Source: Sphaeroforma arctica JP610
Lineage: Eukaryota
Direction: 5' to 3'
DNA: 38,070 nt
Assembly (NCBI RefSeq): GCF_001186125.1
Contig: NW_014039925.1
Location: forward strand, 16,142-54,211
Below, piece by piece: positions 544-37,917 of the stretch. A program made the position numbers and the translations under genes. Below the pieces are notes generated by a model. That model saw nothing but the letters and a program-made list of their open reading frames with translations, was not told the origin of the DNA and searched no databases. Within the stretch, counting starts at the first letter, position 1. The number at the start of each line of letters is the position of its first letter.

Positions 544-3500
544 CTATCCAGATTTTGCTTTATGTGTGTGGACTGGCGACCATTTGGTCATACTAAGAAC
601 GCCCCAGCCAAGCGCACTCGACGCGTATACACACGTGCAAGCAATACACGAGCTGATCGGCCAGGGCTGCCACGGCCTATCCCAATCCAATGGTACAGCT
701 ATGGCACCCACCCACATCCCAAAGTGTGTCCCTATAAAAGCTGTGTAGGCGAGCGCTTCCTGCCGTGCACATATGTGTACATAGGGTCATATGAGAAATG
801 GGGGAATTGGAAATGGACAAATTAAATGTGCAGATACAGTCTAATGACACTCACCCGCAACCCAAGGCGCACATATACGAATGCTGGATGAACGCGTACT
901 TTCTGCGGTGTATACTTAAAAGGGTGTATAGTCTTGTGTAAAATTATAGAAACGGATCCTTAGTTTCCGTATCTCAGGATGAAGGCGCAACGACAGTACC
1001 CGCGCACATCTCACTATGAGACCACATATATATCGCAGGCTAACAACGCCCGTGCGCAAACGAATAATTGTTGGTAGCCCTGTATAGAAGATAGCTCTCT
1101 TCATAATGTAGTGTGGTGGGTATGTGTAGGGTCTTGTGTGAGACTGGCTGCGTGTATGCATGCAGTGCGAGGAGGCTTATCGAATACGTCGGATGGTGCT
1201 ATCCGAATAGTGATGTGCTTGGATGCGTTGAATATGCACTCACATTCTATCGGGAGAACATACAGCAGTTAAGTGACCATGCAGCTCTGGTGGTGGTTGA
1301 TGTATGCGTGTGTGCATTCAATATTGTGCAAATAATTCTGCGTGCATAGACACGAGGTGTGCAAGGTCTACTAGCAAGTGGAAGATATTATACATGAATG
1401 CTTGCCTGATGTACAAAAAAAAACATCCTTGTGCCGTAGTGTGTCTACCCAACCAGTACAAACATGTTTGCCTAAAAACGGAAAGATACGTTCCATAATG
1501 TGGCTAAACGAGCTTTGTGCAGACACGTGCTTCCTGCAGTGGTCATCGTGCTGGTAGCTGCGTACGAGTGTAATAACTATTATGCTTTTATACAGTATAT
1601 GGCGTGCCTGTGTACTTGCGAGTGTATGGCATGTATAGTTATACCCGCTTAAGGACAATTCACCACCGCCACCTGCAAGTATGCAGTCCAAGTTGCTCAC
1701 ATATATCCACAACCCTATACCAAGCCATAGGTGTGAATCGTAGATGTAAATCGTAGATGTAAATCGTAGATGTAAATCGTAGATGTAAATCGTAGATGTA
1801 AATCGTAGATGTAAATCGTAGATGTAAATCGTAGATGTAAATCGTAGATGTAAATCGTAGATGTAAATCGTAGATGTAAATCGTAGATGTAAATCGTAGA
1901 TGTAAATCGTAGATGTAAATCGTAGATGTAAATCGTAGATGTAAATCGTAGATATAAATCGTAGATGTAAATCGTAGATGTAAATCGTAGATGTAAATCA
2001 TAGATGTAAATCGTAGATGTAAATCGTAGGTATAAATCGGCATATATTTAAGCATACATACACGAAATATAGAGATATGCAATGTACCGATACAACTTAT
2101 CCTTCTTTAGAGTAGCTTCATTGCGCATGCCTGGTCAATTCCATATAGGACGCCAACTAACACGTAGGCCAGACAGCTCACATTACACACAACATTGCAT
2201 AGTTGCATTATTATCAACTGGCTCACAATCACACACATATACGAGATATAGACTAATGCGATGGCGTAGCAGGAATTGCATGATGCGTCCCTGGTAAGCT
2301 CCACAGAGCACGTCGACAGGTAGGTGGGTCAGACACTTCACATACACACGCAATCTTCTCTGGGTACAAATCAGTATACCGGTATATAGAAACGCATGTA
2401 TAAACGGGATATGCATCAATGCGATGTCACCACACACCTTGTCATCCCTCCACGCTTGGTGAAGCAGTAGTTTCATTATGCCTTCCTGGTCGATTCCGCA
2501 CAGGATACCTATGGGCATGTAAGCCAGACAGCTCACATACACACAAGCCGACAACGTCACATCCAACTTTTCCAACAGAGGCGCCCCGAAGCAGACGAAA
2601 TTGAAGTACAGGAAGGGAATGCTGATGCTGAATTGTAGATTTGCGGATAGAATTAGGAAATTTGAATTGAGACAATTGGGCCGAAAAGCATACCCATTAA
2701 TAGAGAATAGGATTTAGAAAATGGAAACTCAATACTGAAATGAGCTATCTCATCATGGGGCAAATGCTGACGACATAAGTGCCAATAAATAAGCCGTACA
2801 AACAGCTGGTTATGAGATCTGTAAAAGTCTCCGATCAGTCATATGCCTCAAAGTAGACATAGATTCATAGTATGAAGATTGGTCATCTGCACAACATGCA
2901 CACCACCTCATTACTGGTCCAAAATATACATCTGGGATCTGGAAATGTTGTTATAACACCGGTTTGCCTGTCTGGTAAGGATTCTTCATACAGCAACGCA
3001 TAAAGACTGTACCCAAACAGAGCACTATTTAGCACGAGGCACAAGTTCTTGTACGGTGCTGAGAATAATGGGACACGGCAATACAAACAACCTTTCAGTG
3101 TCCAATCAGGTAGTAGGCAAACACAACATATACAATATCGTTTCGGCAAGTGTACATTGCGCCCAATGCATTCAAGACCACACAGATACAGATGCCATCC
3201 ATCCACCCATTCAAGTGACCTACAAAAAGCACACAAGCCAGGGCTATTCGTTCAGTACACAGTACTAAATAGAGAGCCTACATATCTATTTGAAATTTTC
3301 AGCACAAAACCAGTACTCGGCAAATTAGCTATCGTCACAGTTGTCAGTACTACACTTGAGGCCTACATTACAAACCCGTGTGTCGAGTGTAAGTGTAAAG
3401 TGTTCTTTAGTTTTGCAATGCAACAAACACACTGTCCTGCACTTCAGTCAACACGGGGCGTGTGGGCCTGCCAGTACCGTCTCTTGCAGTGCTATATATG

Positions 3501-11218: not shown

Positions 11219-14200
11219 TCAGTGCAATGCCGAGAGTGCCTCCCCAACACTACGCCCTGGCAAATCAAGCGTTTCTCCCGGCTTCAATTCGCACACATTG
11301 ACCGTCTTGGACGTCACCAGCTTCTTCAGCTCGGCAGGGGTGCCCGCGAGTAAGGGGAAGGTACCGAAATGCATAGGAACAACGATGTTCACAGACTTGA
11401 GCAGGTTGTTGATTGCGTATGCCGCCCCACGTGGTCCCATGGTGTAGTGGTCGCCGATGCTGAGCAACGCTACATCGGGGCTGTATAGGTCCGAGATCAC
11501 CTTCATGTCTCCGAACACGTCTGTGTCACCTGAGTGATAGATGCGGTGGCCTAATATACGCCCCCCCATACACATCCCCCACAGATTGAATAAATAAATA
11601 GATAGTCGAATGTTGAGTTTCGGATAGCAGGATATGATATGAGGCTTGTGGACACGGATGGTTTGAAAAGCGATACAAACAGACCCACCGGATGAAGTAC
11701 ATCGGTCCATACGCCTATGCATGGGAGTGCTACACCCAGATGTAAAGGACGAGGGTTCTCAATATGTTCCGTTGACGTTTTGTACCACCTGAGTGGTGCA
11801 TGCGCAGCCCTCTATGTAGAGTGGGTCTAAAGCTAACACCGCTGAATACGTCACGTGCGTATATCCAGCTACACATACGATTGTATTCCACCCGGCAACG
11901 GGCCTTCACAATTCTCTCACTACGAAAACATACACTGTGTACACGTTTTCTGACATCACAGACTATTGTGCAACCCTCTATGTAGCGAGGATTTGAGGGC
12001 CAATGATTTCTGACTACTTCACATGTGTGCCTATATTCAGCTACACACACGATTGTACTCCACCCGGCAATGGGGGGCTACTGGAGCGAGCGATGTGTTC
12101 ACAACTAGCATGAGCACGAACACGGGCCCTCATGCAAATACCGAACTTCACGATTCTCTTACTATGAAAACATGTGGTGTGCACACGTTTTCTAATACCA
12201 CACACCATTGTGCAACCTCTTTCGTACAGCGCAGGCAGCGCTATACACGTGGTGAATACGACATACCATTGAGAACCAATGCTGCAGCATGACATGCCAC
12301 ACAACCCTCCCAGTATCACATTCTATTCCAAAGTCTACCTCACACCAGACACCATTCCAACAAGGCACCAATATCAACCGCATGTAGCGGCGTCCAAGTG
12401 TCAACAGTGTACATACCATTGGGCAAGTGGACCACCCAGCCAGCCGCTGCACCTCCGACCTGTAAGGGATGTTCCGATCCACACCCACCTATAAATAGCA
12501 ATAGCATTAAACTCGTTCAGCGAAGAAGAAGACAAGACACAACATCCGTGTGCTGTGCCTATGGCTGTGCTGTCAATAGGACTGGACTGACCATAACGCA
12601 GTCATTCCGGGACAGCTCGTTTACATGGTCTGATGGGGAGATGTGCCCGTGTGGCGTGTAGACTGAATGCGTGTGATATGGCAGCTATGACTCACGACCT
12701 TGCACACGAGTGATTTAATGTGCAGGTATGCACACGCCCTACACATGTAATCTTGAACGCATATGGTTTGTAGGTGCTCGATAGGTTTACGCTTATTTGC
12801 TCTATAGTGACTTGGTAATTTGTAGAACGTACGGACCATACCTCAACTGCACACTGTGTGTTATGTGTCACATATAACCATACCTTAACTGCACACTGTG
12901 TGTTATGTATCACATATAACCATACCTCAACTGCACACTGTGTGTTATGTATCACATATAACCGTGCATGTGTATACGCGAGTAGATGCCAAGTTCGCTA
13001 CATGCTTGAGATGTATAATTTACAAACGACTACAACGTGATAGTTTGTATGTCTGAGGTTGAGACACTTTAATGTGCGATAGAGTATGCGTATACTATGT
13101 GCAAGTAACTGTGGTTTTGTACGGTTTCTACAACCCTTATATGACTTTCACCATCGCTGCATGGACAACTGCACACATACTTCTATACCCATCCAGGCGG
13201 TCGCCCCTACACACATGCACATACACACACACACGCACATACACACACACATGCACATACACACACACATCTGCAATTTCCAGGTATACTACATAATACA
13301 TACATTCCTTATGTACTATGAATCCGTGACAGATACAACTATGACCTCAACTGAGTGCACTGCTTGTGTCATAGTAGGTATACTGCATATTATATACATG
13401 CACTATGTACTATGAATGCGTATACTACATATTATATACATATATTATGTACTATGAATGGGTATACTACCTATTATATACATGCATTATGTACTATGAA
13501 TGGGTATACTAAATATTATATACATTCATTATGTACTATGAATGGGTATACTACATATTATATACATTCATTATGTACTATGAATGCGTATACTAAATAT
13601 CATATACACTCATTATGTACTATGAATCCGTGAAAGATACAACTATGAACTCACCCGAGTGCACCGCTTGTGTCATAGTGGCCTGGCATCCGTTTCCAAG
13701 GTCTGCCGTGCCGCCTATATTCATGCCCACTATTTGCTCATCCGCCACTCCCTCGCCCTTCAGGTAGAACGACACCTCGTGTATACAGTACACTGTGAGT
13801 ACATAACAAAGTAGTTAGTAATAGTATAGCTCTTAGAGTACATAACAAAGTAGTTAGTAATAGTATAGCTCTTAGAGTACATAACAAAGTAGTTAGTATG
13901 CCTAGGACAGTTGTCATGAGTGTGTGCGGAGCATTGTCAGTATTTATAAGATGAGGAAAGGTAGTTTCCTCTCTGTTTGTTTACCCCTGAATTGTTGTTT
14001 TGTGTATGCAAGGATGATTTCACAAGAACGCGCAGACTCATAAATTTAAATGATAACTCGTTTGTGGAAATAGTGGCTTGCCAAAGTGCACGTTCAGCTA
14101 AATCCCCAATAGTATACTTTAGGATAAAAGTAAGCCTGCTATCTCAATATCCAGTCCACTACCCAAAAACAGAACGAATCACTATCCATTTAGTAGATAC

Positions 14201-17271: not shown

Positions 17272-17344
17272 TGGAGAATGAGAGAATCGAACTCCCGACT
17301 TCGTGCATGCAAAGCACGCACTCTACCAACTGAGTTAATTCCCA
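17272..17344 (-). tRNA. tRNA-Ala (anticodon UGC), possibly damaged at position 1
   Basis: TGGGAAT TA ACTC AGTTGGTA GAGT G CGTGC TTTGCAT GCACG AAGTC GGGAG TTCGATT CTCTC ATTCTCC A folds as a cloverleaf. It has the G3:U70 Ala identity pair, A73 and a T7 Pol III terminator at 17271-17265, but a U1:C72 mismatch. Confidence 0.9.
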
Positions 17345-18870
17345 TATGGTTGTGGGCTCAAATTTATGTTTAAGAATGCGGAGGCCAACGAGGTGGCAGA
17401 GGCAAGCTCGAGATTCTTCATGCTGTACATAAGAGAAGGTTTGTCGAAAAGCCACTCGACATTGCCAGAATCGCGGACCATGGCAGGAACTACCTCATCA
17501 ACATAAACGACAAGAATAAATCGCGTTCAGAGTGAAGCCAGTTGTATTCGTCCTGTTTGCTATGTATAAATCCGAGGTGACATAATGTGCGGCCTATGTC
17601 CTGATTCCAAAGCCGGCCGGCTTGCTTGAGGCCGTAAAGGCTACGGAAGAGTCTGAGAATCTTATTGGGTGCGTAGTGGTCCAGCTCAACGTTACCCTTC
17701 GATGGAAACATGTAAACCGGGGTGTCAAGCTTGGCGTATTGGTAGGCGGTATTTAAATCGAAATGATGTACCGACCGATTTTGGAATGCTGCGGTAGCAA
17801 GGAAGGTACGGAGAGTAGAGGACGATGCGGTAGGGGCAAAAGTGTCCCAAAATAAGTCCCCGTGGAGTTGTTCATCTCCACGGGCGACCATGCGGGTCTT
17901 ATAAACTGTTAAATCGCCATTTTCATCATGTTAACTGGTAAAAGCATACTTGGAATGGATGATTTTGGCGGTTGAGGGGACATCAGATAGAGGAATGGCA
18001 TCGGCGAGGCTATTGCGGTCGTGAGCGGCTCGCTCCCGATCGATGGCGTCAGACCAGAAGTATCAGTCGGGAGGCTTGGATCTAAATCAACGGCATCTGC
18101 AAGTGTGAACTCAGGCTTTGTTGTAGAGATGAATGATTTGATTCGATGTTTGAGTTGGTGAATACGATAAGCTAGACGGCGTTGCTGGGATGAATTCATA
18201 CGGCGGGAGAGAGTACGGCAAGGTACATTGGTCGGCGCACAGGATAAATGATCAGCTGGGATGAGGGGGATTTGTGCGCGTAGGGCGGCGGGTTCGGAAT
18301 CAAAGAAGTCAGCGTTGGGACCGGGGGCATATACTGGAGTTGTGACGGGCGTATAAAATGCTGCGAGGTTAGAGTCGAATCCAAAAGCATGAGTGACGTC
18401 GAGATTATCGTGGGGAAAGGGTATAGGGGAAGGGGGAGGTGGTATATGGGAATTGTGTGTAGTAGCGGAGGGGCTGGGTTTGTGGAGAAGAGGTATAGTG
18501 GAGGGGGGAGGTGATATATAGGAATTGTGTGTAGTAGTGGAAGGGCTGGGGTTGCGGAGAAGAGATATAGGGGAAGACGGAGAGTATATTGTGATGGCGT
18601 GATGAGGGGGTGGTTGGATGGGAATGGGAGTCGGCGGGGGTGGTTGGATGGGAATGGGAGTCGGCGGGGGTGGTATGGTGTGACTATGGAGAAGAGGAAT
18701 GGGAGTGGGCAGTGGGGGGTGTGGTATGTACTAAGGGTATTGGGGAGGGGGGGGGGGGTCTGTTGTGTTGAGAGGGTATTTGAGAAGGGAAGGGCATACC
18801 ACTTCGGGTTATCGTATGCGGAGATGCAGTGGAGTCGGTACTGTCAGAACTTGTTGGGGTGGTGGGGCTA
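17345..18870 (-). mobile_element. Degenerate Ty1/copia LTR-retrotransposon pol fragment (RVT_2 reverse transcriptase plus upstream Pro/Ser-rich linker)
   Basis: YKTRMVARG..DTFAPTA..HHFDLNTAY..VYM..RSLYGLKQAGRLWN (17490-17905), with a frameshifted YVDE motif. The extent beyond about 17950 is inferred from composition. No LTR seen. Confidence 0.88.
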
Positions 18871-18875
18871 ACTGA

Positions 18876-20208
18876 GTGGGGACAAGGGGGGGGGCGTGGG
18901 CTGCACTTATATCAATAAATCAAAACAAACAAACACAAAACCCACGTGTACACACACTCTCTCTCTTTGTAGAGATAGATGGCAAGTCTATCACGTCGCT
19001 CAAAGCGGTACCCACACATATATCACTACTCAGACCACAATTAGAGAACAAGGTCTGCTATGTAGATGCTTCCTCTTTAGTTCACTTGACTATGGAACGG
19101 TGCACACGAAATAACTTTATAAATTCACTATAGATTGCACACGGGATCCATGTCCACAACAATGGGGGAGGGGGGGGGGGGGGGAAGTAACAGAGCCGCG
19201 TACACAGGAAAAATCAACATATTTAGTCTATTCAACAGTACCTGCAGCAATATACTTGGCTGTACTCCAGTCTACGTATTCGACGGTGATGTACCTCCAG
19301 CGAAACAGAAGGAGAAAGAAAAATGCACAGATGACGCGAAGAAAGCATTTTCCGAATTTTGAGAGCTGGATGGTAAAGGCCTGGCGGCAACGAAAGAAGG
19401 TATGAAAACGCTTTTGGCTGCGTGCATACGAACCTGGCAACAAACACGTATTGGTATAAGCAGTTGTGTAACCATGCGATGTGAGAAGTGGATTGCACCC
19501 TATGAAGCGGATGTTCAAATCATCTACTTATGTAGATTATCAAATAGAGAATGCTTTGTAGCATGTATATATTCCGACTTCTTAGTATATGAAGGTGGCG
19601 TAGACATTTGTTTTGGTCTGATCAATGAAGCTGCGAAGTATATGCTATCGTCTTTTATAATCTGTATGTTTTCTTATGATCACAGAAGACAGTTTCTTGA
19701 CACTGAGCACCTGACGGATGCTATGTTTCTTGCAAGAGCTATCCTAAAAGGATGTGATTACATCAGACACCTGTACTCTTCGAAGGGGCCGGGGCCATTG
19801 TTTCGTATTCGAGTAGATAATTTATTAGTTAATATGAAGATGCATCTTAGTGACGCAAACAGAGAGTACGACGACGATGAAATGCTGAAAGCATTAAAAG
19901 CATGTCTCACGTCCGACAAGTATGTGCCGTGTGTGCGGTCATTTCGCCTGGCTTTGAATGCATTTAGGAATGCGTGAGTGTTTGATATCTCGGGTACTAA
20001 ATGTATCACCTTGAGAGGAGAAGACAGTCCAAAGGATGGATGTGTAGGAATTACTGGACACAATATAGACGACAGCGTCGCATTTGCATACAGTTCAGGA
20101 GAGTCCAATCCCATCAAGAAAATCCCTGAGGTTCTTGAAGATTTCGGTGTTTGTCCAATACCAGATGGTTTTAGACATACGTATGTTGCGGTTGCTAAAG
20201 TAGATTAG
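18876..20208 (+). pseudogene. Disrupted Exo1/XPG/FEN1-family (PIN-fold) 5' nuclease
   Basis: Ordered motifs HIS..KVCYVDASSLVH, PVYVFDG..PPAKQKE, APYEADVQ, SDFLVY, AILKGCDY..KGPG, ALNAFRNA*VFD. In-frame stops at 19360 and 19975, and a frame change near 19133. Confidence 0.85.
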
Positions 20209-20314
20209 TATCGTTATCCGGTTGTAACAAAGGGTACGATGTTGGAGTTTTTTTTTTGCTTTGCTACGTACGAGAAGGGCCAAACCAGAACGGCTTCCCA
20301 TGTAGCTGAGCCTA

Positions 20315-20968
20315 ATGAGAAGGCGAACACTGCAGTCAGAGCTGCTAAATCTCTGTCTAAGTATAAGTGGGTGCAGTTGTGTTTTTCAGACTGTATTTCA
20401 CGCTAATCATGAAACCTCAGTCACCGGACGAATACCTAGATCACAATTTCAAAATTTGACGCAGGCATATGCTAATATTGCTTTAAATAACGAAGGTAAA
20501 TATTATGTTAAGAAAGGTTACTGCGTGTGTCCGTTATGTATCGAAGGGAAGTGCGTGCACGTGGCAGCACTGATATGGAGTACGGCGCAACAGGGTGCCA
20601 GGACTCGAGCAAATAAGCTTGAGAAATATCGCCATGATTCAGCCGTGACGAAAGCACCAAACGGTGAATCAGATGATGAAAATGTTGTGTGTACCAGTAG
20701 ATTAGGCAATTGGGTCATACCATCAGGTAACGAAAAGATGGACTTGAGAATGGACCCCCACACAATTGCCGAGAGACAAGATGCGTTCGTACAACAAAGT
20801 GATGAAGCGAATACAGAACCCGATATACGGAAGCGGAAAGTACGCGAAGGCCTATGTCAGAAACAGTACTTAAAGGAGTGTATGAAATTTTCTGGATCCT
20901 TTATCGTATGCTGGGACACCGGAGGCGTTCGTAGTCATGCGCAACAATCATATAAAGCTGATAGATGA
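20315..20968 (+). CDS. SWIM zinc-finger ORF of transposon accessory-protein type, probably the C-terminal part of the Exo1-like frame
   Basis: GYCVCPLCIEGKCVHVAALIW (CxC..CxH SWIM) followed by VCTSRLGNWVIP, resembling the SCTS..C.W..P motif that follows SWIM in ISL2EU/Harbinger accessory proteins. Confidence 0.72.
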   Translation: MRRRTLQSELLNLCLSISGCSCVFQTVFHANHETSVTGRIPRSQFQNLTQAYANIALNNEGKYYVKKGYCVCPLCIEGKCVHVAALIWSTAQQGARTRANKLEKYRHDSAVTKAPNGESDDENVVCTSRLGNWVIPSGNEKMDLRMDPHTIAERQDAFVQQSDEANTEPDIRKRKVREGLCQKQYLKECMKFSGSFIVCWDTGGVRSHAQQSYKADR

Positions 20969-21039
20969 TGTGGCAGAATTTTATAAACTAAATTGATTTA
21001 GGTTGAATAAAAAATATCGTTCACACATCACGTCAAACA

Positions 21040-22790
21040 CAGGGCCAGATGATATCGGTAAGATAAAAAGCAAGTTACACTTGCTAATGAAACCGACATA
21101 TTTCAGCTCGACGGCTAACTCGCTCTATATGTATGCGAGATGAAGTTATTTTCTTCGTTGTACGGTTTTCATCCCTTGTGAATTGTTGGTCTCTATTTAA
21201 GAGGGGCGGTACGTTATATGTACAGTCAGGCGGTAAAAGACTATATATGTGAAATCCTTTATCACCTATAACATATGATTTTCGCCATAATCTTCCAAAC
21301 AGTTTGTCCCGATATAGCTCGGTGATATCGGGGTCGCTGATCTTACCAGGCATAAGGCGAGTAGCGAACACACAATGCGCTGCCCCTGAAATAGCTACCA
21401 ATTACTCCGGGATATTGTGATGCTTGTAGTTGCTACACGAGGCTCTTTGTGTGTCTAAGTTAGACGAGGTTTCCAAGAAGTACTCTGTACAATCTATGAC
21501 GAGTGCTGTATTTGGGTAATCTACCTCAAAATACGGTAACAGCCAGCGGTTGTTGATTCTTCGTCTAATAGCAAAAATCATGTGCTGGATGTCTGAAATA
21601 GGCATACATCACAAAATTTACCATTATTAAGTATGTTTGATACTGTTTGAGTACAGGACAGCCCAAATAAATGCATTACTACACCCTGCTCTAAGTTATG
21701 ACGAACACGGGCGAACCACATCACAATTGCATTCTCAAAAGTCCCAGATCTTCTCCCCGGTTCATACTTGGCTCCGAAGCTCTTCATCTGTGTCATAAAC
21801 GCTCCAAATTTGCCTACTGATTGGAATCCGGTACAATATCTAGTCACCTCCCTCGTGCCTAGGATATAACCGTAAGAAAATATGTACACTCTCGTTTCTT
21901 TCATCATCGTAGCCATTTTGCTCATTTGGAATTGCATATGTTCAAGCTTGCCTGGTTGTGTATCTACCTCGTCTCGTAGTGTCACTCCTAGTTTTGTTGC
22001 TGTCTTGATTGTTTGTTCCGCTTTTACACCATCAGCAACCATTTTTAGTATAGATTGGCTTGTTTCATCTAACTTCTTGATAGCATTATGAAGCGCTATA
22101 GCTTGAGCTTCTAATCTGTGTTTCACCTCACTTATCGTCGTCTGGGGTGTATACATCTTTTTAGTATTGGCTGCTGTTGCAACAGGAACATTAATTCGTG
22201 TACAAATACGAAGTAGTGGTGTGTGCATCTTGTATCTGATCTCTAGTCATCTGTTCCCGAGTCCGTAAATTCTCTTGTTGTCTTTTTGCCGGTGTAGTGA
22301 TCACTGTGGCATAATTTGTTGGTTGTTGAGGTGAGCTTACACCAAGTTGAAATGCAGTAGTGTGATTGTCGCTTGGCGGTGTACTGAGGCGGGATGCAAG
22401 GTCCACGATTTCTAATGTAGGGTTTTAATTAGATCATGGAGCGTCGCGATCGATTTAAGCATATTTGCCCAGTCCTTGGATGAAATATAGTATGTACCAG
22501 GCACATTGGTAGGAGTTGGTGCATTTTGCACCGACATTTCACCGGGAAAACTGGGAGCCCCAGCAAATAAAATTTGGGAGGATGGGGGAGCTTTTGGATT
22601 TTTTTTAATCCTTTTTTTCATCTTCTTTTTCTTGTCCGAGACTTAGACTTTCAGATCAAAGGGGGTCTGAAGATTTATATTTCCGTCTTTAATTCTACAC
22701 TGGTGACCTCGGGGAAACTAAAAAGACGAAAAGGTTTTGTATTTTTCTCTTTCTCTCTTTACATGATTTCTATGGCCGAGAACTGTTCTT
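21040..22790 (-). mobile_element. Degenerate PIF/Harbinger-superfamily (ISL2EU-like) DDE transposase with HTH_Tnp_4 + DDE_Tnp_4 domains
   Basis: YCTGFQS..ENAIVMWFARVRHNL..HLFGLS.TQTVSNIL (HTH); YPNTALVIDCTE..SNYKHHN..GKISD..IGDKGF..RIHIERV (D-D-E triad). Broken by frameshifts and stops. The 5' limit is approximate. Confidence 0.88.
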
Positions 22791-25477
22791 ATTTGGTAAA
22801 TTAGACAATCCAAACAAACCCAAATCTGAAAAAGAATGGACTGAGCATCAGCTTAGACTGAAAATTCATGTTTATCCTGCTTTAAAGAAGGTACGAGTAT
22901 CTTCATAAACTCAAAAAAAGATGGGATGAGAAACACAATATCGCCCATTTGAAGAAAGGTGATTATGTAATCCTTTTATCAAGAGGATCTCATTAAACAA
23001 AACTCTCTGCATGATATGTTGAACCATATCGTATATCAAAAGCTCATAAAAATGGTTATGAACTAAATTGAACAAATTGAAGAATTGAGGTATATGTTGG
23101 TTTGGAAGTTTCTTACATACAAAAATATAGAGAATATATATATATATGCTGGTTGCTGGTTTCATCTCTAAATAGTATATAGAGACTCTCATAAAACATT
23201 GGTGGTTGTATCATAGCCCTCTAGAAGGTCTCCGCAAAATTATCGATGTCGCAGAGATAACCTTTTTTTCCGCTCGAGACCTTAAATCTAGAGGGTGGGA
23301 TGGGGTCATGGGGAGGGGTATAGCTATTGCTGTAGCTCATGTATTTATTATGCCATAGTTGTTTTTGAATTTGGAGGTGAGCATTTTGGTATTCACGAGA
23401 CCGGGTTTTATTTTATTTTAGAAATAATCAAATTGCAGAACAAGCGCCAAAATTGTACTGCCGCTGCGATCGCCCATAATGGCGGCATGCCAGCATGGCC
23501 CTCTCTCTGAGCCCCTGGGGTCGCTGGATTGTCGATTTGCGTCTCTGACTCTCTGCAAGTCCGCGACCGCGTGGAAAAGGCCGAACAAAGGCTGCATCTT
23601 CTAAGTTCCTGGAGACTTTATCCAGTCTCCAGAGGTCCATGGATCGCCGATCATAACACTGATAAGTGATAACAGAATCAGATTCCACATATTTTGGCTT
23701 TTGCAGCTTTGAGACCGAATCTATTGGTGGTCGTCAAACAATGTTTATTCGGCTTATAGTATTGGTACATAAAATACACAAGCAAGGGTTTCTTTCTAAA
23801 ATTCTGAATCCGAATTTTGATTAAAAAAATTTGATGATGAATATTTTGATGATGTCAGCCCTGTCTTGTCCAATGGAAAAATGTAAGTTTATCTTTTGAG
23901 GATGTATCATGTTTGGATGACATATATATGTCTTATTAAAATATAAAATGGCGGCAAATGCAAATTGCATTTGCCTAAAAACTTTGACAGAATTGAAAAG
24001 AATATACCTCAAGATTTATAAAACTCAATAGAAGTTTAAAAAACCTGATAAACCCCAGAATTAATTATTCGCGTTGTGCTTGCACAACTGTGAGGGAGGG
24101 GGGTTGCTGGCTTCTGGGAGATATAAAGATATAAAACCTCATATATTCAGGGCACAATAGTTTTCAAATATATGTACAATTCGGTCATATAGGACCGTCT
24201 TGCACCTTAAGAGCACTTGCTGCTAAGACAACACCATGGGGCGTTGTATTTTCTTATAGTCGACCGGGGCTATCAGAAGACCTCCAGACCGACTCTCGCT
24301 ATGATTTGCTTGAAGTCCTAGTGAGGGCTTTTCTCCGAAATAAAACATTTCGTTTTCCCTCACTAGCAAATGAGATAAATATATTCTAATAACGAAATCA
24401 CGATAGGAGATACTTATCTTCCTCGTGCTAACTGATTACCCACAGTTACACACTAGGTGGCCCGGTTAATTGAATGCCAATCTACACTTTCTTCGCGGCA
24501 TCAAAAGTATCTAGACCGCAACCGGGCTACAACATGAATTTTACGATGATCGGGGTGAATTCATTCCGACAGGTATCGGCACAGCCATACATTCACGTAC
24601 TGACCTTTATGCCAATACTCTTTAATGTGTTCAACAGAATTACAACACAATACCTTAATGTACTAACAATCTTAAGTATATCACTATGATAACAATCATA
24701 AGCATACCACTATGATTGCCTGTAACACACGAGTATATAGGGTCCTTGGCCAAATATGCAGCGCAATCAGAGGGCAACAAACAACAGGGAGTCAATATTC
24801 ACACCGGTTCCGGTGACTACAATAATAGGTTACGAGTTCTACACGTTTCAGGTAACCCAGCTGGCGATCAGATATCGCCATGATCATCAACAGATGCTAG
24901 CTCGGCTCGAGGCCAACATCGAGCGATTGTATCAATCACAGGATCAGGACCAACACAACAGAGCCACCACGAACTGATTTCACAACGGAGGATCGCACAA
25001 CATGCACTAGGGGATGCACGGCACGATAGGACAACGAATACATAAGTGCAGAACATACACCAACAATACGGATAATATTATTTATTTTCAAAATGGCCAG
25101 TAGGTATGATACACCAACAATAGGCGAACATACAAAAAGCACATGCCACAGTATAGTACAGAGTGAGTACACAAATAGACTACAAAGCAATAACAATAAA
25201 GAAAGAAGACTACTATTGTTTTGGTTTCGAGTTTTGGTCTATGAGTTTTGCTTTTGTCTAATAGTATTGTCTTCTGGTCGGCCCAATCTCGTGATTTCAT
25301 TGGCTGTAAACAGTAACTATATTTAGTAAAATGGTTGGTTTTGTTTGATTTCAAATTGAACTCGTGTAAGCACCTCGTGTATTGGCTTGGAACTTGTGGC
25401 AAAACTGTCGCAACTCGTAACTCAACTCGACGGTTTTTTTCGGGGTTGATTTTGCAACTCATTTTGAACCACGAGCT

Positions 25478-26573: not shown

Positions 26574-27477
26574 AGAGCTAAGTCATCAAGTTGCTCAAAT
26601 TACTCTCGGGGTTTTGGTAATATGGACTGAGTTGGTCTGAGATATTTGAACATGATACCAAGGAGGGCGATGTTGTCATCCGCAATTCTGATTCAGAGCG
26701 AAGTTGGGGGCTGTCCGATACCACACCACACAACTGATATATTTGGGATATCCTTGCTAGCCATAACCGGAAGTATCATAGGTGGTACCAGAAGTCTCGA
26801 AGATTTGGTATCAATCTATCGACTAGTACTGGATAGGGACAATTTGGCGCCTGTTGTTTATGGAGAAGGAAGCTCCCGAGATGTTCGTAGAGAGTCCATA
26901 TGCCGTGGTAATCATGCCAATCCTGTAGTTGTTGTAGTAAGCCCGGTCCAATTGGGGGTAGATTAGGGCCCACCAGAATACGCCTTATCGGAGAACTGAT
27001 ACAGGCAAAGAGGCTGGACGTAAAAGACTTATCTTCAGGGCACACAGGACAGAGGCATCCATCAGTACGATAGTCACGCAATTTGAACAGGAACGTGTTG
27101 GTTGTTACCATGGCACAAAGGCAGATTTGGGTGTGTTCGCGGCAATGGGTAAAACTATCATGGGATAGCTTGTCCCGGTCCATGGTGGGAGGTTCTCCAC
27201 TTATAAGCCGCTAGTAGTATAGGCGGCGAACCTTGCCTGCTATCTCCTGGGTTGTGAGACATTGTATGGTATTATGTCGGATCTGCTCGCGGAGCTGACG
27301 GAGTTCTTTGTGTTGAGGTGTGCACCCGCCCTTTGATTCTAGATAAGCGTATATACTGAACGCGAATTTGTCTCAAGGTCTGTTACGTGTCCAAGCGGGT
27401 CTCGTAAGTGGGGCGAGTGGGTGTGTACTGTTGATTGAGTCAAGATGTAGTCCCAGGCAGCCTTCAAGGTACTCCAC
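26574..27477 (-). mobile_element. 5'-truncated non-LTR retrotransposon (LINE) fragment, C-terminal zinc-knuckle region; same family as 28690-31192
   Basis: EYLEGCLGLHLDS..HPLAPLTRPAW and RDYRTDGCLCPVCP..GPNLPPIGP..HGIWTL align with the second copy. In-frame stops are present. Confidence 0.85.
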
Positions 27478-28689: not shown

Positions 28690-31192
28690 TAGTCGCTGTA
28701 GTGGTTCAGGAAAGATTGATGGGAAGAAGTGGTCAGTAAATTCCCGTTTGAAGCTTGGGCCAAGTGAGTCGACAATGGAAGATATGTGCTGAGTCAATTC
28801 GGGCCGGTGTTGACAAAACACTATTACAATCGAATGTTCCATATATTCGCTTGCTGACCTACTAAGTAGAGTACCCACCTCTGTGGTACGGATCGGGTCT
28901 GTGCCGTGTAGTGCCGCAGAATGGGTTAGTGCAGAGTACGAAATACCGAGAAGGACCAGGTTATCCGTCATAATCCGGTCGAGAAGCGAGAATGGGGGTA
29001 AGCCAAACCATGGATGAATTCGGTATGTGTTGGCTGGCCTGGATCGGAAGTATCATAGTCGGAACCAACAAGCGCGATGATTTGGGTTGAACCGATATTT
29101 GGAAGTAGTACTTCAACAGCGTGATTAGCCGGGGTATAGGGAACATCTGTTGATGTGTCAGGGACGGGTGAGGGTACAGTGGTTCTTCAACATGCTGGAG
29201 AAAAGATCCAAGGTGTTCGTGGAGGGTCCAGATACCGTGGAAGTCGTGGCACTCTTGTAATTGCTGAAGGAGATCAGGGCCAATGGGCGGCAGTTTCGGG
29301 CCTACCAGGATGCGTCGAATCAGTTGTTGGATGCAGGTAAAGTGGCTGGTAGTGAACTTGTGGGTACCGGGGCAGACAGGCCAGAGACAGCCATCGGTGC
29401 GGTAGTCGAGCAATGTGAACATGTACGTATTCGTTACAATCATAGCACAGAGCCGGATTGGTGTAGACTCGAAGCAGCGATTGAAGCTGTCGTGTCTGGC
29501 TGTGTCTCGGTTTGAGGTTGACGGTTTACCCATAACCAGTTGGTGGTAGTATTGGCGCCGGGCCATTGCCGCGATCTCCTTGTTGGACCAACGTTTTGTT
29601 GAGTTCTTCCTGATGTCGTCACAGCGTTGGCGGAGGGCTACATGGTCGGGTGTACGTCCGCCCGTGGGTTTGTGTACAGTTTTCAGGTGAGCATAGATAC
29701 TGTACGGGAAGCGCAGTTATGGTTTATCGTGGGCCCAGGCGGGTTGCGTCAGAGGGGTAAGTGGATTTGTGCTGGCCATTGAGTCGAGTTGTATTCCCAG
29801 GCAACCTCCGAGGTAGTCCGCGAATGGTCGCGCGGGGAGCAGGCCGCAAAAGTGAAGTAAGTTTGTTTGATGTTTGGGAAACCGAGGGTATTTAGTGCCC
29901 GTGATGATGGCTGCTGCTTGGATGAGTGCTGAGTTAAAGCGCTCGAATAGGGGATCCAACGCATCCTTCCATATAGGCGGAGCCCAGACAATAATGTCCA
30001 GCCCATATGTAGCTGTGGATAGGATGAATGTTTTGAACATCACCAGTCGGTTGCGGAGGTGTCGCCAGCTGAAGCCATGTAATCCATAAGCGCGGAAAGA
30101 GGCGATACCCAGTGACAATGCTGCAACCAGAGATTCCATATGTCTAGCGAGGTTGATTCCTGGTACTCCGTGAGAGAGTGGGAATCCCAGGTATTTGGAG
30201 TGTTTCGGTTCGGCATGTGTGGGCGCCAGTTTCAATGGGAGGAAACGTGTGTTCCAAGGTGCGTCTGCAAGCGTCGGCGTGATAAGCTCACCATTTATAC
30301 AGAGGGTTGGCGCCGCCTGTCACAAGTCGGTAGATCGTACTCGGGGTTTAACGACACCCTATTCGAGGCCAGATTTGCGTCCCCACGCATCAATGTCATC
30401 TAAGAAGGGCTGGAGCGAAACCGATCGAGGGGCTTGGAGCCGTGTGTCATCGACAAATAAATAAGAGCGGAGGAGCTTGGGCCGAAATTGTGCTAGCGTG
30501 ACAGCTAAGGAATCCATGTAGATAATAATGAGCTGGGGGCCAACGATTGAGCCTTGTAGGATGCCATTCGTTCTATGGAATAGAGACGAGAGCGTAAAGC
30601 GGTATGTCACTCGGGTAGGGACTCTCCCAAACAGCGCGCGGAGGCAGTTGATCCAGTTTTCAGGCATTCCAGCGTGACGCAGAAGTACCCATAGGGATAA
30701 TATTATTTATAGGGAGAGCGAACTTGTCGTATGCCTTGGTTATCCTCTTCTGACTGTGTCTCAGATTCCATGGCGGCAAGTGCTTGGGTATGACAGGAGT
30801 ACCGTGATTTGAAGCCAGCTTGGGTGGCATGGGTAGCGGAGCCGGGGTGGCTCGTAATCAGATTAAGAAAGCACTTTTCAAAGATGCGTCTAACTATTTG
30901 CGTAAGCGTGATGAGGCGGAAGTCGGCGGGGGAGGTGATATATGCATCGGCTTTCTTTGGGTGCGCTGTCAGGAGGCTGCAGTTCAGGGCTGCGGGGAAA
31001 GTACCCGCCTTCAGTAGCTCAGTGAATGCTTCGGTAAGGAGTCTAATCAGTGGGCTATTGGCGTCGGGGCGTCCTAATGTTCAGGAGGCTGCAGTTCAGG
31101 GCTGCGGGGAAGGTACCCGCCTTCAGTAGCTCAGTGAATGCTTCGGCAAGGAGTCTAATCAGTGGGCTATTGGCGTCGGGGCGTCCTAATGT
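28690..31192 (-). mobile_element. Degenerate 5'-truncated LINE: reverse transcriptase plus C-terminal zinc knuckle
   Basis: FRLITL..RRIFEK..QAGF, KAYDK, GILQGSIVGPQL..YMDSL, YLFVDD, KYLGFP, then a PVC..H.TC knuckle. Contains stops and frameshifts. Confidence 0.92.
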
Positions 31193-33914: not shown

Positions 33915-36900
33915 CTACCGACCAGAGTAGAAGCCCACCAAAGACGACGGCCGTACTATCAGCTGACCTTCAGATTCTGTGGCATGGAATTCTCTGCTCC
34001 CGCTCCCGCCGCCCCCTCCTGTCTCTTTACGCCTACACATACACTGATCACGGTCTTTGTCACAGGCACACACACCTGCATGTGTGGCACGTTCGTCTCG
34101 CGGGGTGTGTGCTCGATGCTGTTGTCGCTCAATGCAATCGTACTGTGTAAGCCGTGGCGAGGACTCACGCGGATGAGATGACCCGGGTGTATGCCCACCC
34201 CCAGGCGTAGGCCGATCTCTTGGTTCCTCAGTATCCTCAACCCAAGCCTCGTACGTATAATGTGCCGCCAACCCCAGCAAGCAAACGTACAACAGCACCC
34301 ACGACCGTACAGACACGTGCACACACACCAACAAAGCGACCGCCTGTTGCGGGAGAAGCCCGAATAAGCCCCGTTTGGAGGCCCTTGATTCGTGCTCAAT
34401 GACCCAGCTCACCACCACTACCAACCCAACTACGCCTAATGAATGCATATCAGTAAACACATGGTACCAGGCAGCTTCGCTCGTTTCCATCTGTGCTTGT
34501 GTTGTAGCAGGTACGTATCGAGCTAGCGCAAAGAGCACCCCCTGTGCTATGCTAGACAGCACAAACCAGTGAGATGCTATAACCTCCAAGGATGTGGAAA
34601 GGTCTGCATATGTCCCATTCCCATTCCCGCTTCCCTGCATATGGTCATGTGTACGTGCCTGTGTACGCTCCCTCATGCGCGCACATCGTTGTGCAGCAGG
34701 TTCTCCTGGGCCACACTTGCCACGGCTGTACGCCTGACTGTGTGCGTCGGTGTGTGACGTACTCATAGGCTCGGTGTAAGGGGGCGGGTGCTCGGACGGG
34801 GCTGTGTGTAGTGCCAGTACTAACGAACTACCGCTGCCCCCAGTGCTGATCTCACTACTACTACTACTACTACCTTGACTACCGGGACATAAAACACCGT
34901 TGTTGGCGACACCTCCACCAGAACCGATTGCCTCGGCACCAAACGTATGCCTGCGCTCTCGTTTCGACGTATTCGTTCGCCCGTCCTGTGACTTCTCGTG
35001 CGTGTGTGGCGTGCTTCCTTCACCATCGTTGGCATACAACGGTGCGTGTAAAGCGTGTGTACAGGCATCCGCCTCGGAATACACCCCGGCCAGGTACACG
35101 TCACTCATAATCATGACGAGTGCGGGGAGCAACAAGACAAGCGCCGGGGCGGTGGGATAGTCCATCTTGAACAGCCACCCGATCTTCACCACACCCACCA
35201 TGCAATACAGGGCTGCCTTGACATTCCGGGGTGATGGTGCAGGGGCATGCGGATATGTATGGGAGTAGGTGTGGGACTGTGTATGTGGTGTACGTGCTTC
35301 TGGATCGAATCGAGGGCGGGGCTGTGTCTCGGAGAGCGCTAGCACGTCTCTGTCCCCAGCTCGCTGCGTATGCGTATCTGGTTGCGTGTGCGTGGGTGTG
35401 TGCGTGGGCGTGTGCGTGGGCATGTGCGTGGGCGTGTGCGTGGGCATGTGCGTGTTCTGAGTGTGCACCCCCCCGGTACTTCGGTCATGGTGTGATTGCC
35501 CAGTGGTACGTTCAGATGTATCCTGCGCCAACATCTTTCGCCCCAAACACCAGTCCCACACCTCCCGCACGTGCGCCTGTACCGTCTCTAGACGACGCCT
35601 GTGTCTATCGCGTGACCCGTCCTCTACATCCCGTCCGGTGTAACATCTATCTGTACGTGCGTGCGTCGACTCCTCCAATTCCTGGTTAATTGTCCGTGGT
35701 GTCCTGCGCGTAGAAGATGTGTTGGGTAGTGCATTATCTGCATCGGTATCTGTATTCGTATGCACACGTGTGTCGGAAGCCGGCCCGACCTCCCTGGTTG
35801 TGCGCGGGCGAGTACTAGGCCGGAGGTTTGCACGAGTATCTGTGGAATATTGACGGGTATCTGTGGCATTTGCGCCCGATCCTGATCCACTATGGCTCCA
35901 ATGGGGCCGCGAAGAAACAGACGGAGACGTGCCGACTCTCCGCTTCTCTCCTTTGTCTTGTGGCGCAGACCGACTGTACATACTGGCACTGGAATGTGAA
36001 TATCTTCTTGTGTGGGTGTGTTTGGGTGTGTGTGTAAGTGTAAGTGTATGTATATGTGTGCGTGCGCGTGTGAGGGGTGACGCTGTGTTCCTATCACGCA
36101 CACATGTGCCGGAGGACGTACTACGAGTATTCCCAGGTGTGGGCTCAGTGTGTGTAGGTAGATCATCGTCACTTGCCTTATATGGTGCAGAGTTGGAATG
36201 CGCGGCAGAATCGTCATACGAGACCAAGGTTCGGGTAGTGGGCAGCGAGGGACGTGCGTATGCCGCCAGCTGGCCCTTGTTGTCATGGGAACCGCGGTTG
36301 GCATGGTTACCGTTCGAGTGTCTGTACGTATGCACATCCCGGGAGTCGCTTTCCGAGCGTCGAGCTACACGCTTCCTTGGACTGTCGCGCATCGAGTGTG
36401 TGTGACCAGTCCCTTTCTCCTCCGCCGTTTCCGCCCCACCTGCTCTACTTGCACCTGAGCTCTCCTCGTTCTGTTGTGTGCGAGTGTGAGACGGTTGTGA
36501 TTGGTGTTCTAAAGAGAGCCTCGCCACACTCTCCAACGGCTGCGGTTGCGATGGGTGCTGCTTGGGCTCCTGCGATTGTGATTGGTGTTCTAAAAATAGC
36601 CTTCCCAGTATAGTTGCGGTTTCCTTTGCGGTGGGGCGGTTGTTGGGATTGCGTGACAGAAGACTCCGTGCCAGCGCTACTAAAGATTTGGATCGTTGAG
36701 TGTCCTGTGCATAAATTGATGTACAGAACAGGAGCGGTTCAATGTTAAAATCACAATTGACAGTACAAACACGCTATTCATGGATGGAAGTAAGTATGAA
36801 AATGTTAGTGAGTAAGCAATGCATGATGATTCAGCGTGTACAAATAGTATGCACAGACGCGGGGTTCAAGGAGAGGGGGGCGGCGAAAGGTAGTAGGAGT

Positions 36901-37221: not shown

Positions 37222-37592
37222 ACTATACTATACATATATACATACATACATACATACATATATAAATACATACATACATCCACACGTCCATACTTACATA
37301 AATAAATACATATATACATACATACATACATATATACATAATATACATACACACAAATACACACATGACAAAGACACACCGACTAGTAAATACGATACCT
37401 TGACCGTGTCTGGGTAGGTAATGGTTTGTTCGCAGTTCAGCATCTCCTCCGCTAGTTCCTGGGGAGAGTCCGCATCGTACTGCCACGGCAGTTTCCCGTA
37501 CAACAGCACGTACAGTACTACGCCCACACTGAACATGTCACTCTGCGAATCGTAGGCCGTTTTGTAGACCCCCCCCTCGTTTTCAAGTAGCT
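33915..37592 (-). CDS. Ser/Thr protein kinase, last two exons (37592-37399; 36704-33915), with a long low-complexity tail and C-terminal transmembrane segments; possibly IKS1 family; 5' exons lie outside the window
   Basis: (AP)[27 protein letters not shown] (subdomains VIII-IX) splices in phase 0 to [18 protein letters not shown] (XI), which is in frame with the 873-aa ORF. Hydrophobic blocks include [26 protein letters not shown]. Confidence 0.85.
37148..37365. repeat. (TA)n/(TACA)n microsatellite in the kinase intron
   Basis: Directly visible. Confidence 0.92.
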
Positions 37593-37917
37593 CTAGGTGT
37601 GATAGAACGCGCAGGTGTACGAGTATGGTATGTTAGGTGGATTGGGGTCTACGTACATGCGTTTACTTAGTTGATTCACCAGAAGATGACAGAATAAATG
37701 ACTAAACAATGCGGGGCAGAACCTGGAAAGTGCAGCCCAATACACAGCCGTGAGAGCGTGCTCGAAGAGGTATTGTGTGTCGGATATATGATGTGATGTG
37801 ATGCACATTAGCGAGATGCGGAGATACCACTCTGCGAATGGTTTGTGTCACCAAAGTCACAGTCAAACACTATGTAGTGTGCTCAATGTGGGGTGGTTCT
37901 GTGCAACCATTCCAAAC

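What the first reader, a model, noticed from the sequence alone, without database searches (positions are those of the whole stretch)
18876..22790. ISL2EU/Harbinger-type transposon whose partner gene is an Exo1/XPG nuclease-SWIM protein rather than the usual YqaJ exonuclease or Myb protein
Seen: a DDE_Tnp_4 transposase (IDCTE / GDKGF / HIER plus HTH) on minus converges tail-to-tail, about 100 bp apart, on a plus-strand frame. That frame carries all ordered Exo1/FEN1 motifs (VDAS, VFDG, PAK, APYEAD, SD, GCDY) followed by a SWIM finger and a CTS..W..P motif. Both genes are similarly decayed and largely intron-free, unlike the intron-rich host genes nearby. Established: PIF/Harbinger elements carry a Myb/SANT accessory protein, and ISL2EU elements carry SWIM + YqaJ lambda-type 5'-3' exonuclease. 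Inference: this is a two-gene element in which a PIN-fold 5'-3' exo/flap nuclease has replaced YqaJ, suggesting these transposons supply their own end-resection or flap-processing activity. I know of no described family with this architecture.
Basis: partly seen in the sequence, partly recalled or inferred. Interest (0 to 1): 0.88.

Follow-up and report, generated by a model that had tools for sequence, protein, structure and literature searches.

The report
Dead transposon carrying its own EXO1
In a single-celled relative of animals lies a broken copy of what is likely a two-gene jumping element whose helper gene joins a relative of the DNA-repair nuclease EXO1 to the helper module that in animal elements carries an unrelated nuclease, which suggests that this kind of jumping likely needs a second, 5'-trimming enzyme.

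Summary
Observation confirmed, with corrections. The host is Sphaeroforma arctica. A decayed ISL2EU-type transposase (minus, ~21030-22640) converges on a decayed plus-strand gene (~18876-20968): an EXO1-like nuclease followed by the ISL2EU partner's SWIM module. The module begins in the nuclease's frame, and an intact 656-aa metagenomic protein has the same fusion. There is no YqaJ and no room for it. The nuclease and two 35-42%-identical Sphaeroforma paralogs fall in a supported clade apart from host EXO1. Corrections: the nuclease lies N-terminal to SWIM, whereas YqaJ lies C-terminal, so this is not an in-place swap and the direction is unknown; two active-site residues have decayed. Not shown: terminal repeats, target duplication, close copies, or a second locus linking both genes (0 of 120 SWIM-motif loci had XPG). 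The scan found this pairing before in algae and diatoms; none of its notes names this host. I found no paper describing it; Repbase and the AcademX paper were unreachable. Verdict: new variant of ISL2EU, dead copy.

The parts
18876..19163 (+). N-terminal piece of the EXO1-like nuclease (VDAS, the D30 equivalent, at 19062-19073); no ATG start found; stop at 19131; frameshift at the G run that follows
   Evidence: Paralog P0027 aligns to 18987-19163 at 42% (E 2e-10); frames; the start at 18876 is inferred
19164..20208 (+). EXO1-like (XPG_N/XPG_I) nuclease core and linker; stops at 19360, 19975, 20206; D171 and R92 equivalents decayed
20209..20968 (+). ISL2EU-partner SWIM module (CxC-x7-CxH at 20522, then CTS..W..P), frameshifted near 20380, with an 81-aa tail and no YqaJ; partly annotated as gene model SARC_07739
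21030..21608 (-). DDE catalytic domain of the ISL2EU-type transposase (D 21494, D 21263, E 21125); in-frame stop at 21402-21404; broken C-terminus
21581..22246 (-). Transposase coiled-coil, YTG-like motif and HTH region, in a different frame from the DDE piece
   Evidence: ISL2EU transposase profile iE 1.3e-3; no Pfam HTH_Tnp_4 hit
22247..22640 (-). Probable broken N-terminal part of the transposase; 22284-22571 is shared with other contigs at about 80-87% identity
   Evidence: Inferred from position; no Pfam THAP hit

Best explanation
This is a dead, likely end-truncated copy of what is likely a two-gene ISL2EU-type cut-and-paste transposon, whose partner gene encodes an EXO1-like nuclease fused in front of the ISL2EU SWIM module and lacks YqaJ; in live relatives the SWIM module would likely dock the nuclease on the transposase-DNA complex, where it would trim 5' strands. 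Shown: the domain content, the fusion, the convergent layout shared with canonical ISL2EU, a nuclease clade apart from host EXO1, and the decay. Inferred: the DDE transposase nicks and joins the 3' ends, and the partner removes the non-transferred 5' strand or flap at the element's ends (my preferred role, about 0.45). The main alternative (about 0.3) is that it resects the donor break so that repair from the sister chromatid restores the element. The argument is that two unrelated folds, both recalled as 5'-to-3' nucleases (lambda-exonuclease-type YqaJ and FEN/EXO1), hang on the same SWIM module, so the activity rather than the fold seems to be what is kept.
For: PHIS signature met. The transposase falls with 16 ISL2EU transposases against 5 prokaryotic IS5-like ones, 97/96. 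The first part of the SWIM module lies in the nuclease's frame: the two pieces score 3.7 and 14.5 bits alone and 26.1 bits (E 3.6e-10) joined with X at the best of 26 break points. Intact P0006 has XPG_N, XPG_I and the SWIM module (iE 9.6e-13), a 96-aa tail, no YqaJ and all nine EXO1 active-site positions. From SWIM to the transposase end is about 510 bp here, against at least 1165 bp in all 32 convergent pairs of the reference loci. Nine divergent nucleases form a 95/99 clade apart from 17 host-type EXO1 rows, and the three Sphaeroforma ones group at 96/90. Their profile matches human EXO1 best (4.6e-33, against 3.5e-25 for Rad2). Paralogs SARC_05401 and SARC_05911 lie on other contigs. The flanks are retroelement debris (RVT_2 E 2.9e-26).
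Against: No second locus with both genes was obtained: 0 of 120 SWIM-motif metagenome loci and 0 of 4 GTDB loci had XPG, though the motif favoured animal types and that scan covered 55 of 64 parts. Only 2 of 91 fetched proteins plus one near-copy show the SWIM motif (the locus's own gene model, P0006 and P0072), so most of the 'mobile' clade is untested for SWIM and all of it for a transposase neighbour. The rows were hand-picked as divergent, branches are long, and a tenth row (P0044) fell outside the clade in the careful tree. No TIR above chance (6 pairs against 0-16 in 5 shuffles) and no ATAGA[G/C] end like the reference elements'. No close second copy of the core is visible at 80% identity or more (tables cut). 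No Harbinger, Spy, Pangu or Nuwa sequences were in the transposase tree. No activity was tested.
Confidence: 0.75

Rival explanations
1. The two genes are neighbours by accident: an EXO1-SWIM gene (mobile or host) and an unrelated ISL2EU transposase remnant landed side by side in a repeat graveyard.
For: No ends, no close copies and no second linked locus were seen here; the region is full of retroelement debris.
Against: The SWIM module matches the profile of ISL2EU partner proteins, and the tail-to-tail layout is that of 32 of 33 SWIM-transposase pairs in the reference loci. Unchecked scan notes report the same pair in algae and diatoms (a lead, not support).
Confidence: 0.08
2. A local accident: a host EXO1 pseudogene lies upstream of an ordinary ISL2EU whose partner lost YqaJ by deletion.
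For: Stops and a frameshift separate the nuclease from the SWIM finger; the annotated gene model covers mainly the SWIM part.
Against: The SWIM module starts in the nuclease's frame; an intact fusion with a similar short tail exists elsewhere (P0006); the nuclease is far from host-type EXO1 and has two divergent paralogs.
Confidence: 0.04
3. The element is real but the nuclease activity is not part of transposition: the SWIM module is the needed part and the nuclease is replaceable cargo, for example for clearing intermediates or shaping host repair.
For: The function of PHIS second ORFs is stated to be unknown (PMC4482050). Spy elements mostly have one ORF (PMC4122938). Kolobok lineages carry many different accessory enzymes, including a 3'-5' exonuclease (PMC9587614).
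Against: Active-site residues are kept across very divergent members, and both ISL2EU partner types carry a nuclease.
Confidence: 0.2
4. The architecture is already catalogued, in Repbase or in a paper outside the searchable library.
For: Repbase and Kojima's 2020 review could not be searched, and the AcademH paper is not held. An XPG-type nuclease in AcademX is recalled; PMC10045372 says only 'nuclease'.
Against: Harbinger+XPG+transposase gave 0 papers and Academ+XPG gave 0. The ISL2EU passages read name only YqaJ and only animals.
Confidence: 0.2

Closest known systems
ISL2EU group of the PHIS superfamily (PMC4482050, parts 1-3 of 4 read; PMC4122938 and PMC9179366, passages read)
   Same: DDE_Tnp_4 transposase with the PHIS signature and ISL2EU-like motifs; second gene convergent on it; partner carries the same SWIM module.
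   Different: The partner has an N-terminal EXO1-like domain and lacks the C-terminal YqaJ (and PHD) of the reference partners; no THAP detected; no TIR or AT TSD found; the host is an ichthyosporean, whereas the 25 published families are all from animals.
PIF/Harbinger, NuwaI, NuwaII (PMC4482050)
   Same: Same transposase superfamily; two genes.
   Different: Their partner is a Myb/SANT protein; Pfam found none here.
AcademX (PMC10045372 passage; the XPG identity of its nuclease is recalled, paper not held)
   Same: A DNA transposon that carries its own nuclease, recalled as XPG-type; TSD length differs between nuclease- and helicase-bearing lineages.
   Different: Different transposase superfamily; recalled as lacking a convergent SWIM partner gene.
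Kolobok lineages E, D, P, H (PMC9587614, passages)
   Same: Precedent for one superfamily exchanging accessory nucleases, including a lambda-exonuclease-like one.
   Different: Unrelated transposase; the paper's text has no XPG or SWIM.
Host EXO1 (human EXO1, PDB 3qea)
   Same: Closest solved relative; same active-site motif order.
   Different: Separate long-branched clade; SWIM module in place of the host C-terminal tail; several divergent copies per genome.

Membership tests
PHIS superfamily | DDE core with D(19-29)K(29)D(18-40)D(11-19)P(18-28)R(3)E | tested here: met
   Gaps 22/29/23/17/23/3; DDE_Tnp_4
ISL2EU | Transposase in the ISL2EU clade | tested here: inconclusive
   Profile iE 1.7e-24; with ISL2EU against prokaryotic IS5-like, 97/96, but long branch, 34% best identity and no other PHIS group in the tree
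ISL2EU | Transposase with HTH and THAP | tested here: inconclusive
   HTH region aligns weakly (iE 1.3e-3); Pfam HTH_Tnp_4 and THAP not hit on decayed pieces
ISL2EU | Second ORF with a YqaJ exonuclease domain | tested here: not met
   A YqaJ-region profile from 20 reference partners finds nothing in six frames of the window or in P0006; too little space
ISL2EU | Convergent second ORF with the SWIM module (seen in my reference loci; not stated in the passages read) | tested here: met
ISL2EU | Terminal inverted repeats | tested here: inconclusive
   None above chance; both flanks abut retroelement remnants, so the ends may be lost
ISL2EU | AT target-site duplication | not testable with these tools
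   No ends, no close copies and no genome held
PIF/Harbinger | Myb/SANT second ORF | tested here: not met
   No Myb/SANT Pfam hit at E up to 1 on 16 pieces
Host EXO1 ortholog | Groups with host EXO1s, single copy, no SWIM | tested here: not met
   Separate clade, three divergent genes in the species, SWIM fusion
FEN/EXO1 5' nuclease | Seven acidic residues plus K85 and R92 (roles recalled; numbering) | tested here: inconclusive
   This copy keeps 7 of 9 in a broken gene; intact P0006 keeps 9 of 9

The most novel reading that the evidence does not exclude
An undescribed, ancient branch of ISL2EU, spread from algae to the closest unicellular relatives of animals, transposes as a two-enzyme machine in which the SWIM module is a docking unit for an obligatory 5' nuclease. 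The EXO1-type partner may be the older state, with animals having exchanged it for YqaJ. PHIS transposases of this branch would then cut only one strand and leave the second to a partner.
Probability: 0.3. Interest if true: 0.85.

Novelty: new variant of a known kind. Interest (0 to 1): 0.62.

Why it matters
The role of the second gene of PHIS transposons is an open question (PMC4482050). One conserved module carrying either of two unrelated nucleases points to 5'-strand processing as that role and makes it testable with an active-site mutant of a well-understood enzyme family. This copy places the EXO1 type in an ichthyosporean, next to the animals in which the YqaJ type is known, which bears on which partner came first. 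It also warns that some 'extra EXO1' or 'SWIM-domain' gene models in protists may be transposon debris. The locus itself is dead and cannot be assayed.

Tried and rejected
No genome is held. Word-seeded protein searches found nothing for the SWIM ORF (0 of 349 candidates) or the read-through nuclease (0 of 4623), and only itself for the C-terminal part of P0006 (1 of 7762). Viral-contig scans found no related element; the one confirmed hit (L121) is a FEN1-type gene in an AT-rich viral contig with no transposase, SWIM or YqaJ and served as outgroup. Two alignments were too loose to scan with. The GTDB scan gave 4 loci, all YqaJ-type. Plasmid and phage searches gave nothing or only IS5-like transposases. 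The single-sequence fold of P0006 was unusable (mean pLDDT 42), so no fold search was run. Atlas: whole P0006 hit a 658-aa XPG cluster (commonest diatoms, 0.92) and an 804-aa one (commonest green algae, 0.91); its C-terminal part gave only 0.80 leads to SWIM-type clusters; leads only. No RNA holder was listed; one run guessed as RNA has a contig over 21106-22411 and none over the nuclease, not used as evidence. The narrower read lay over the element's ends was not obtained, so the ends remain unmapped. CpG depletion was not marked (observed/expected 0.96 and 0.85 against 0.90 for the window). The missing first codons of the nuclease were not found upstream. Rejected: real introns as the cause of the breaks, since the sequence that the gene model splices out is in the nuclease's frame and continues into the SWIM module. 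In the transposase tree, 15 of the 16 rows labelled YqaJ had a YqaJ-profile hit; L009 had none. Supplements of the PHIS papers were not opened and may list elements with unannotated second ORFs (the Pangu ORF2 has 'no known motifs').
Full report
Host and setting. No genome is held for the window. An HMMER search with the read-through nuclease frame found 67 proteins at E up to 0.001. The best is this locus's own gene model, named by the source as Sphaeroforma arctica SARC_07739; it matches 20441-20965 at 100%. The region is repeat debris: a copia-type RT remnant on the left (17493-17930, RVT_2 E 2.9e-26), a stretch on the right (about 22760-23070) that looks by eye like a gypsy integrase tail but has no Pfam hit for the piece tested, and a further RT remnant at 30362-31080.

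Observation. The minus strand carries a DDE_Tnp_4 domain in two pieces split by a stop. Its spacing meets the published PHIS signature (PMC4122938, passage; gaps 22/29/23/17/23/3). The plus strand carries XPG_N and XPG_I hits with the motifs in order. The gene is in three frame pieces with four internal stops and two frameshifts. Numbered on human EXO1, it keeps D30, D78, K85, E150, D152, D173 and D225 but has Tyr for D171 and Cys for R92, each one base from the expected codon (the catalytic roles are recalled). Single contigs of two DNA runs span both genes and keep the stops; both may be the source of this DNA. The copy is dead.

A reference set. A scan of metagenome contigs for a SWIM motif gave 120 stored loci (the scan stopped at 55 of 64 parts). 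Of these, 41 have a transposase-profile hit, 61 a YqaJ-region hit, 34 both and 0 an XPG hit; among the 55 of 3 kb or more, 33 have both. Pfam confirmed YqaJ in 6 of 6 partners and DDE_Tnp_4 with HTH_Tnp_4 in 5 of 5 transposases, 4 of them with THAP. These are canonical ISL2EU as described (PMC4482050, parts 1-3 of 4 read; PMC9179366, passages). I built profiles from them.

Is the SWIM part of the nuclease gene? Yes. The piece 20209-20403, in the nuclease's frame, scores weakly on the ISL2EU SWIM-module profile (E 2.8e-3). The next frame scores 14.5 bits (best of 500 shuffles 5.5). Joined with X at the best of 26 break points, near 20380, they score 26.1 bits. Independently, P0006, an intact 656-aa protein from metagenomic contigs, has XPG_N and XPG_I, the same module (iE 9.6e-13) and all nine active-site positions. 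Neither it nor the window has YqaJ. Their tails after W..P are 96 and 81 aa, while five reference partners run 421-464 aa past the finger. SWIM lies about 510 bp from the transposase end here, against 1165 bp or more in the 32 convergent reference pairs. So the nuclease sits in front of the module and YqaJ behind it: a gain at one end and a loss at the other, not an in-place swap.

Is the nuclease host EXO1? No. Two other S. arctica gene fragments on other contigs, SARC_05401 and SARC_05911, match it at 35-42%. In a quick tree of 67 rows, 11 rows that I picked by eye as divergent stood apart from 56 others (SH-aLRT 98). In a careful tree of 29 rows rooted on two FEN1-type proteins, 9 of 10 such rows formed a 95/99 clade within the EXO1 radiation; the Sphaeroforma trio grouped at 96/90 and P0044 was unplaced (P0051 and 39 other rows left out). 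Branches are long, and the host's own EXO1 was not among the named rows. A profile of the divergent rows matches human EXO1 far better than Rad2 or FEN1. Only P0006 and its near-copy P0072 show SWIM besides this locus; the others are shorter, perhaps cut or spliced.

Transposase placement. With 16 reference transposases and 5 prokaryotic IS5-like ones, the window's protein falls on the ISL2EU side (97/96), nearest to the divergent L076 and L124 types, at 34% identity at best. Whether YqaJ-bearing elements form a clade without it is unresolved (AU p 0.42). Other PHIS groups were not available.

What is missing. No TIR above chance. Most reference element ends that I could map start ATAGA[G/C], and no such end lies near either boundary. 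The nuclease's 5' end abuts the copia remnant, so the left end is probably lost (inference). At 80% identity or more the core shows flat depth and no second contig among the 31 of 190 pieces listed. Only 22284-22571 is repeated, at about 80-87% identity, which is unexplained.

Mechanism. Shown: a PHIS transposase and an EXO1-like nuclease on the ISL2EU partner module in the canonical layout. Inferred: the module docks the partner on the transposase complex, as the Myb-like partner binds the Harbinger transposase and the TIRs (PMC9179366). EXO1 is a 5'-to-3' exonuclease with flap activity (abstract starts of PMC6337416 and PMC4613700 in the listing); YqaJ belongs to the lambda-exonuclease family (recalled; Viral_alk_exo hits). 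I favour trimming of the non-transferred 5' strand or flap (about 0.45) over donor-break resection (about 0.3) and a dispensable cargo role (about 0.2).

What is known. ISL2EU+exonuclease gave 7 papers; the passages read name only YqaJ. Harbinger+XPG+transposase and Academ+XPG gave 0 papers; the listings showed no title on this pairing. 'XPG' does not occur in PMC9587614, PMC10045372, PMC5751038, PMC5718144 or PMC10799480 (passage searches). The AcademH paper was not held; that AcademX carries an XPG-type nuclease is recalled and would be a precedent in another superfamily. Repbase, Kojima's 2020 review and the papers' supplements were not seen. The scan's own notes hold 15 findings with these words in at least 4 genomes; the 8 shown are mostly from algae and diatoms. 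None is from this genome or names this host. They are leads; I tested the fusion and the clade, not their linkage or end claims.

Verdict. A real, dead member of an EXO1-carrying variant of ISL2EU. It works like ISL2EU by inference but fails the YqaJ criterion, so it is filed as a new variant. Interest 0.62: the architecture seems unpublished and makes an open question testable, and this copy extends it to the animals' unicellular relatives, but it is broken, has no ends, and linkage was not replicated here.

Noticed in passing
window 17272-17344 (-): A tRNA-Ala(TGC) gene lies about 150 bp beyond the truncated copia remnant and 1.5 kb from the element.
   Followed up: partly
window 22284-22571: Segment shared at about 80-87% identity with several other contigs in all four runs laid, including a 2298-base contig in a run guessed as RNA, while the transposase core is not shared. 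It could mark deleted derivatives or an N-terminal domain common to other elements; the listed changes lean weakly to third codon positions.
   Followed up: partly
L122, L123, L124, L125: Animal-type ISL2EU elements (transposase plus SWIM-YqaJ) sit in contigs labelled as Nitrosopumilaceae, Nitrospirales and Poribacteria MAGs, three of them 207-932 kb long; likely host DNA binned into these genomes.
   Followed up: partly
window 19834-20965 (+): Gene model SARC_07739 splices out two stretches that hold the stops and the frameshift of this pseudogene; likely an annotation artefact.
   Followed up: yes
L002:818-3130, L076:5165-6700: Some YqaJ-type partners carry a SAP or SAP-like domain in front of the SWIM module, so the N-terminus of this partner takes additions.
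   Followed up: no
window 28961-31080 (-), with a similar piece at 26776-27210: Decayed element with RVT_1 hits (30362-30706, E 2.4e-6), probably non-LTR; the downstream part appears duplicated.
   Followed up: no
window 11219-11758 (-), 2183-2713 (-), 37294-37632 (-): Host-gene exons: metallo-beta-lactamase fold, PIG-F and protein kinase.
   Followed up: no
window 33915-36773 (-): A 952-codon low-complexity ORF without a Pfam hit, next to kinase exons.
   Followed up: no
window 23922-24456: Another multi-copy repeat with loose ends at 24016, 24087 and 24456; not identified.
   Followed up: no
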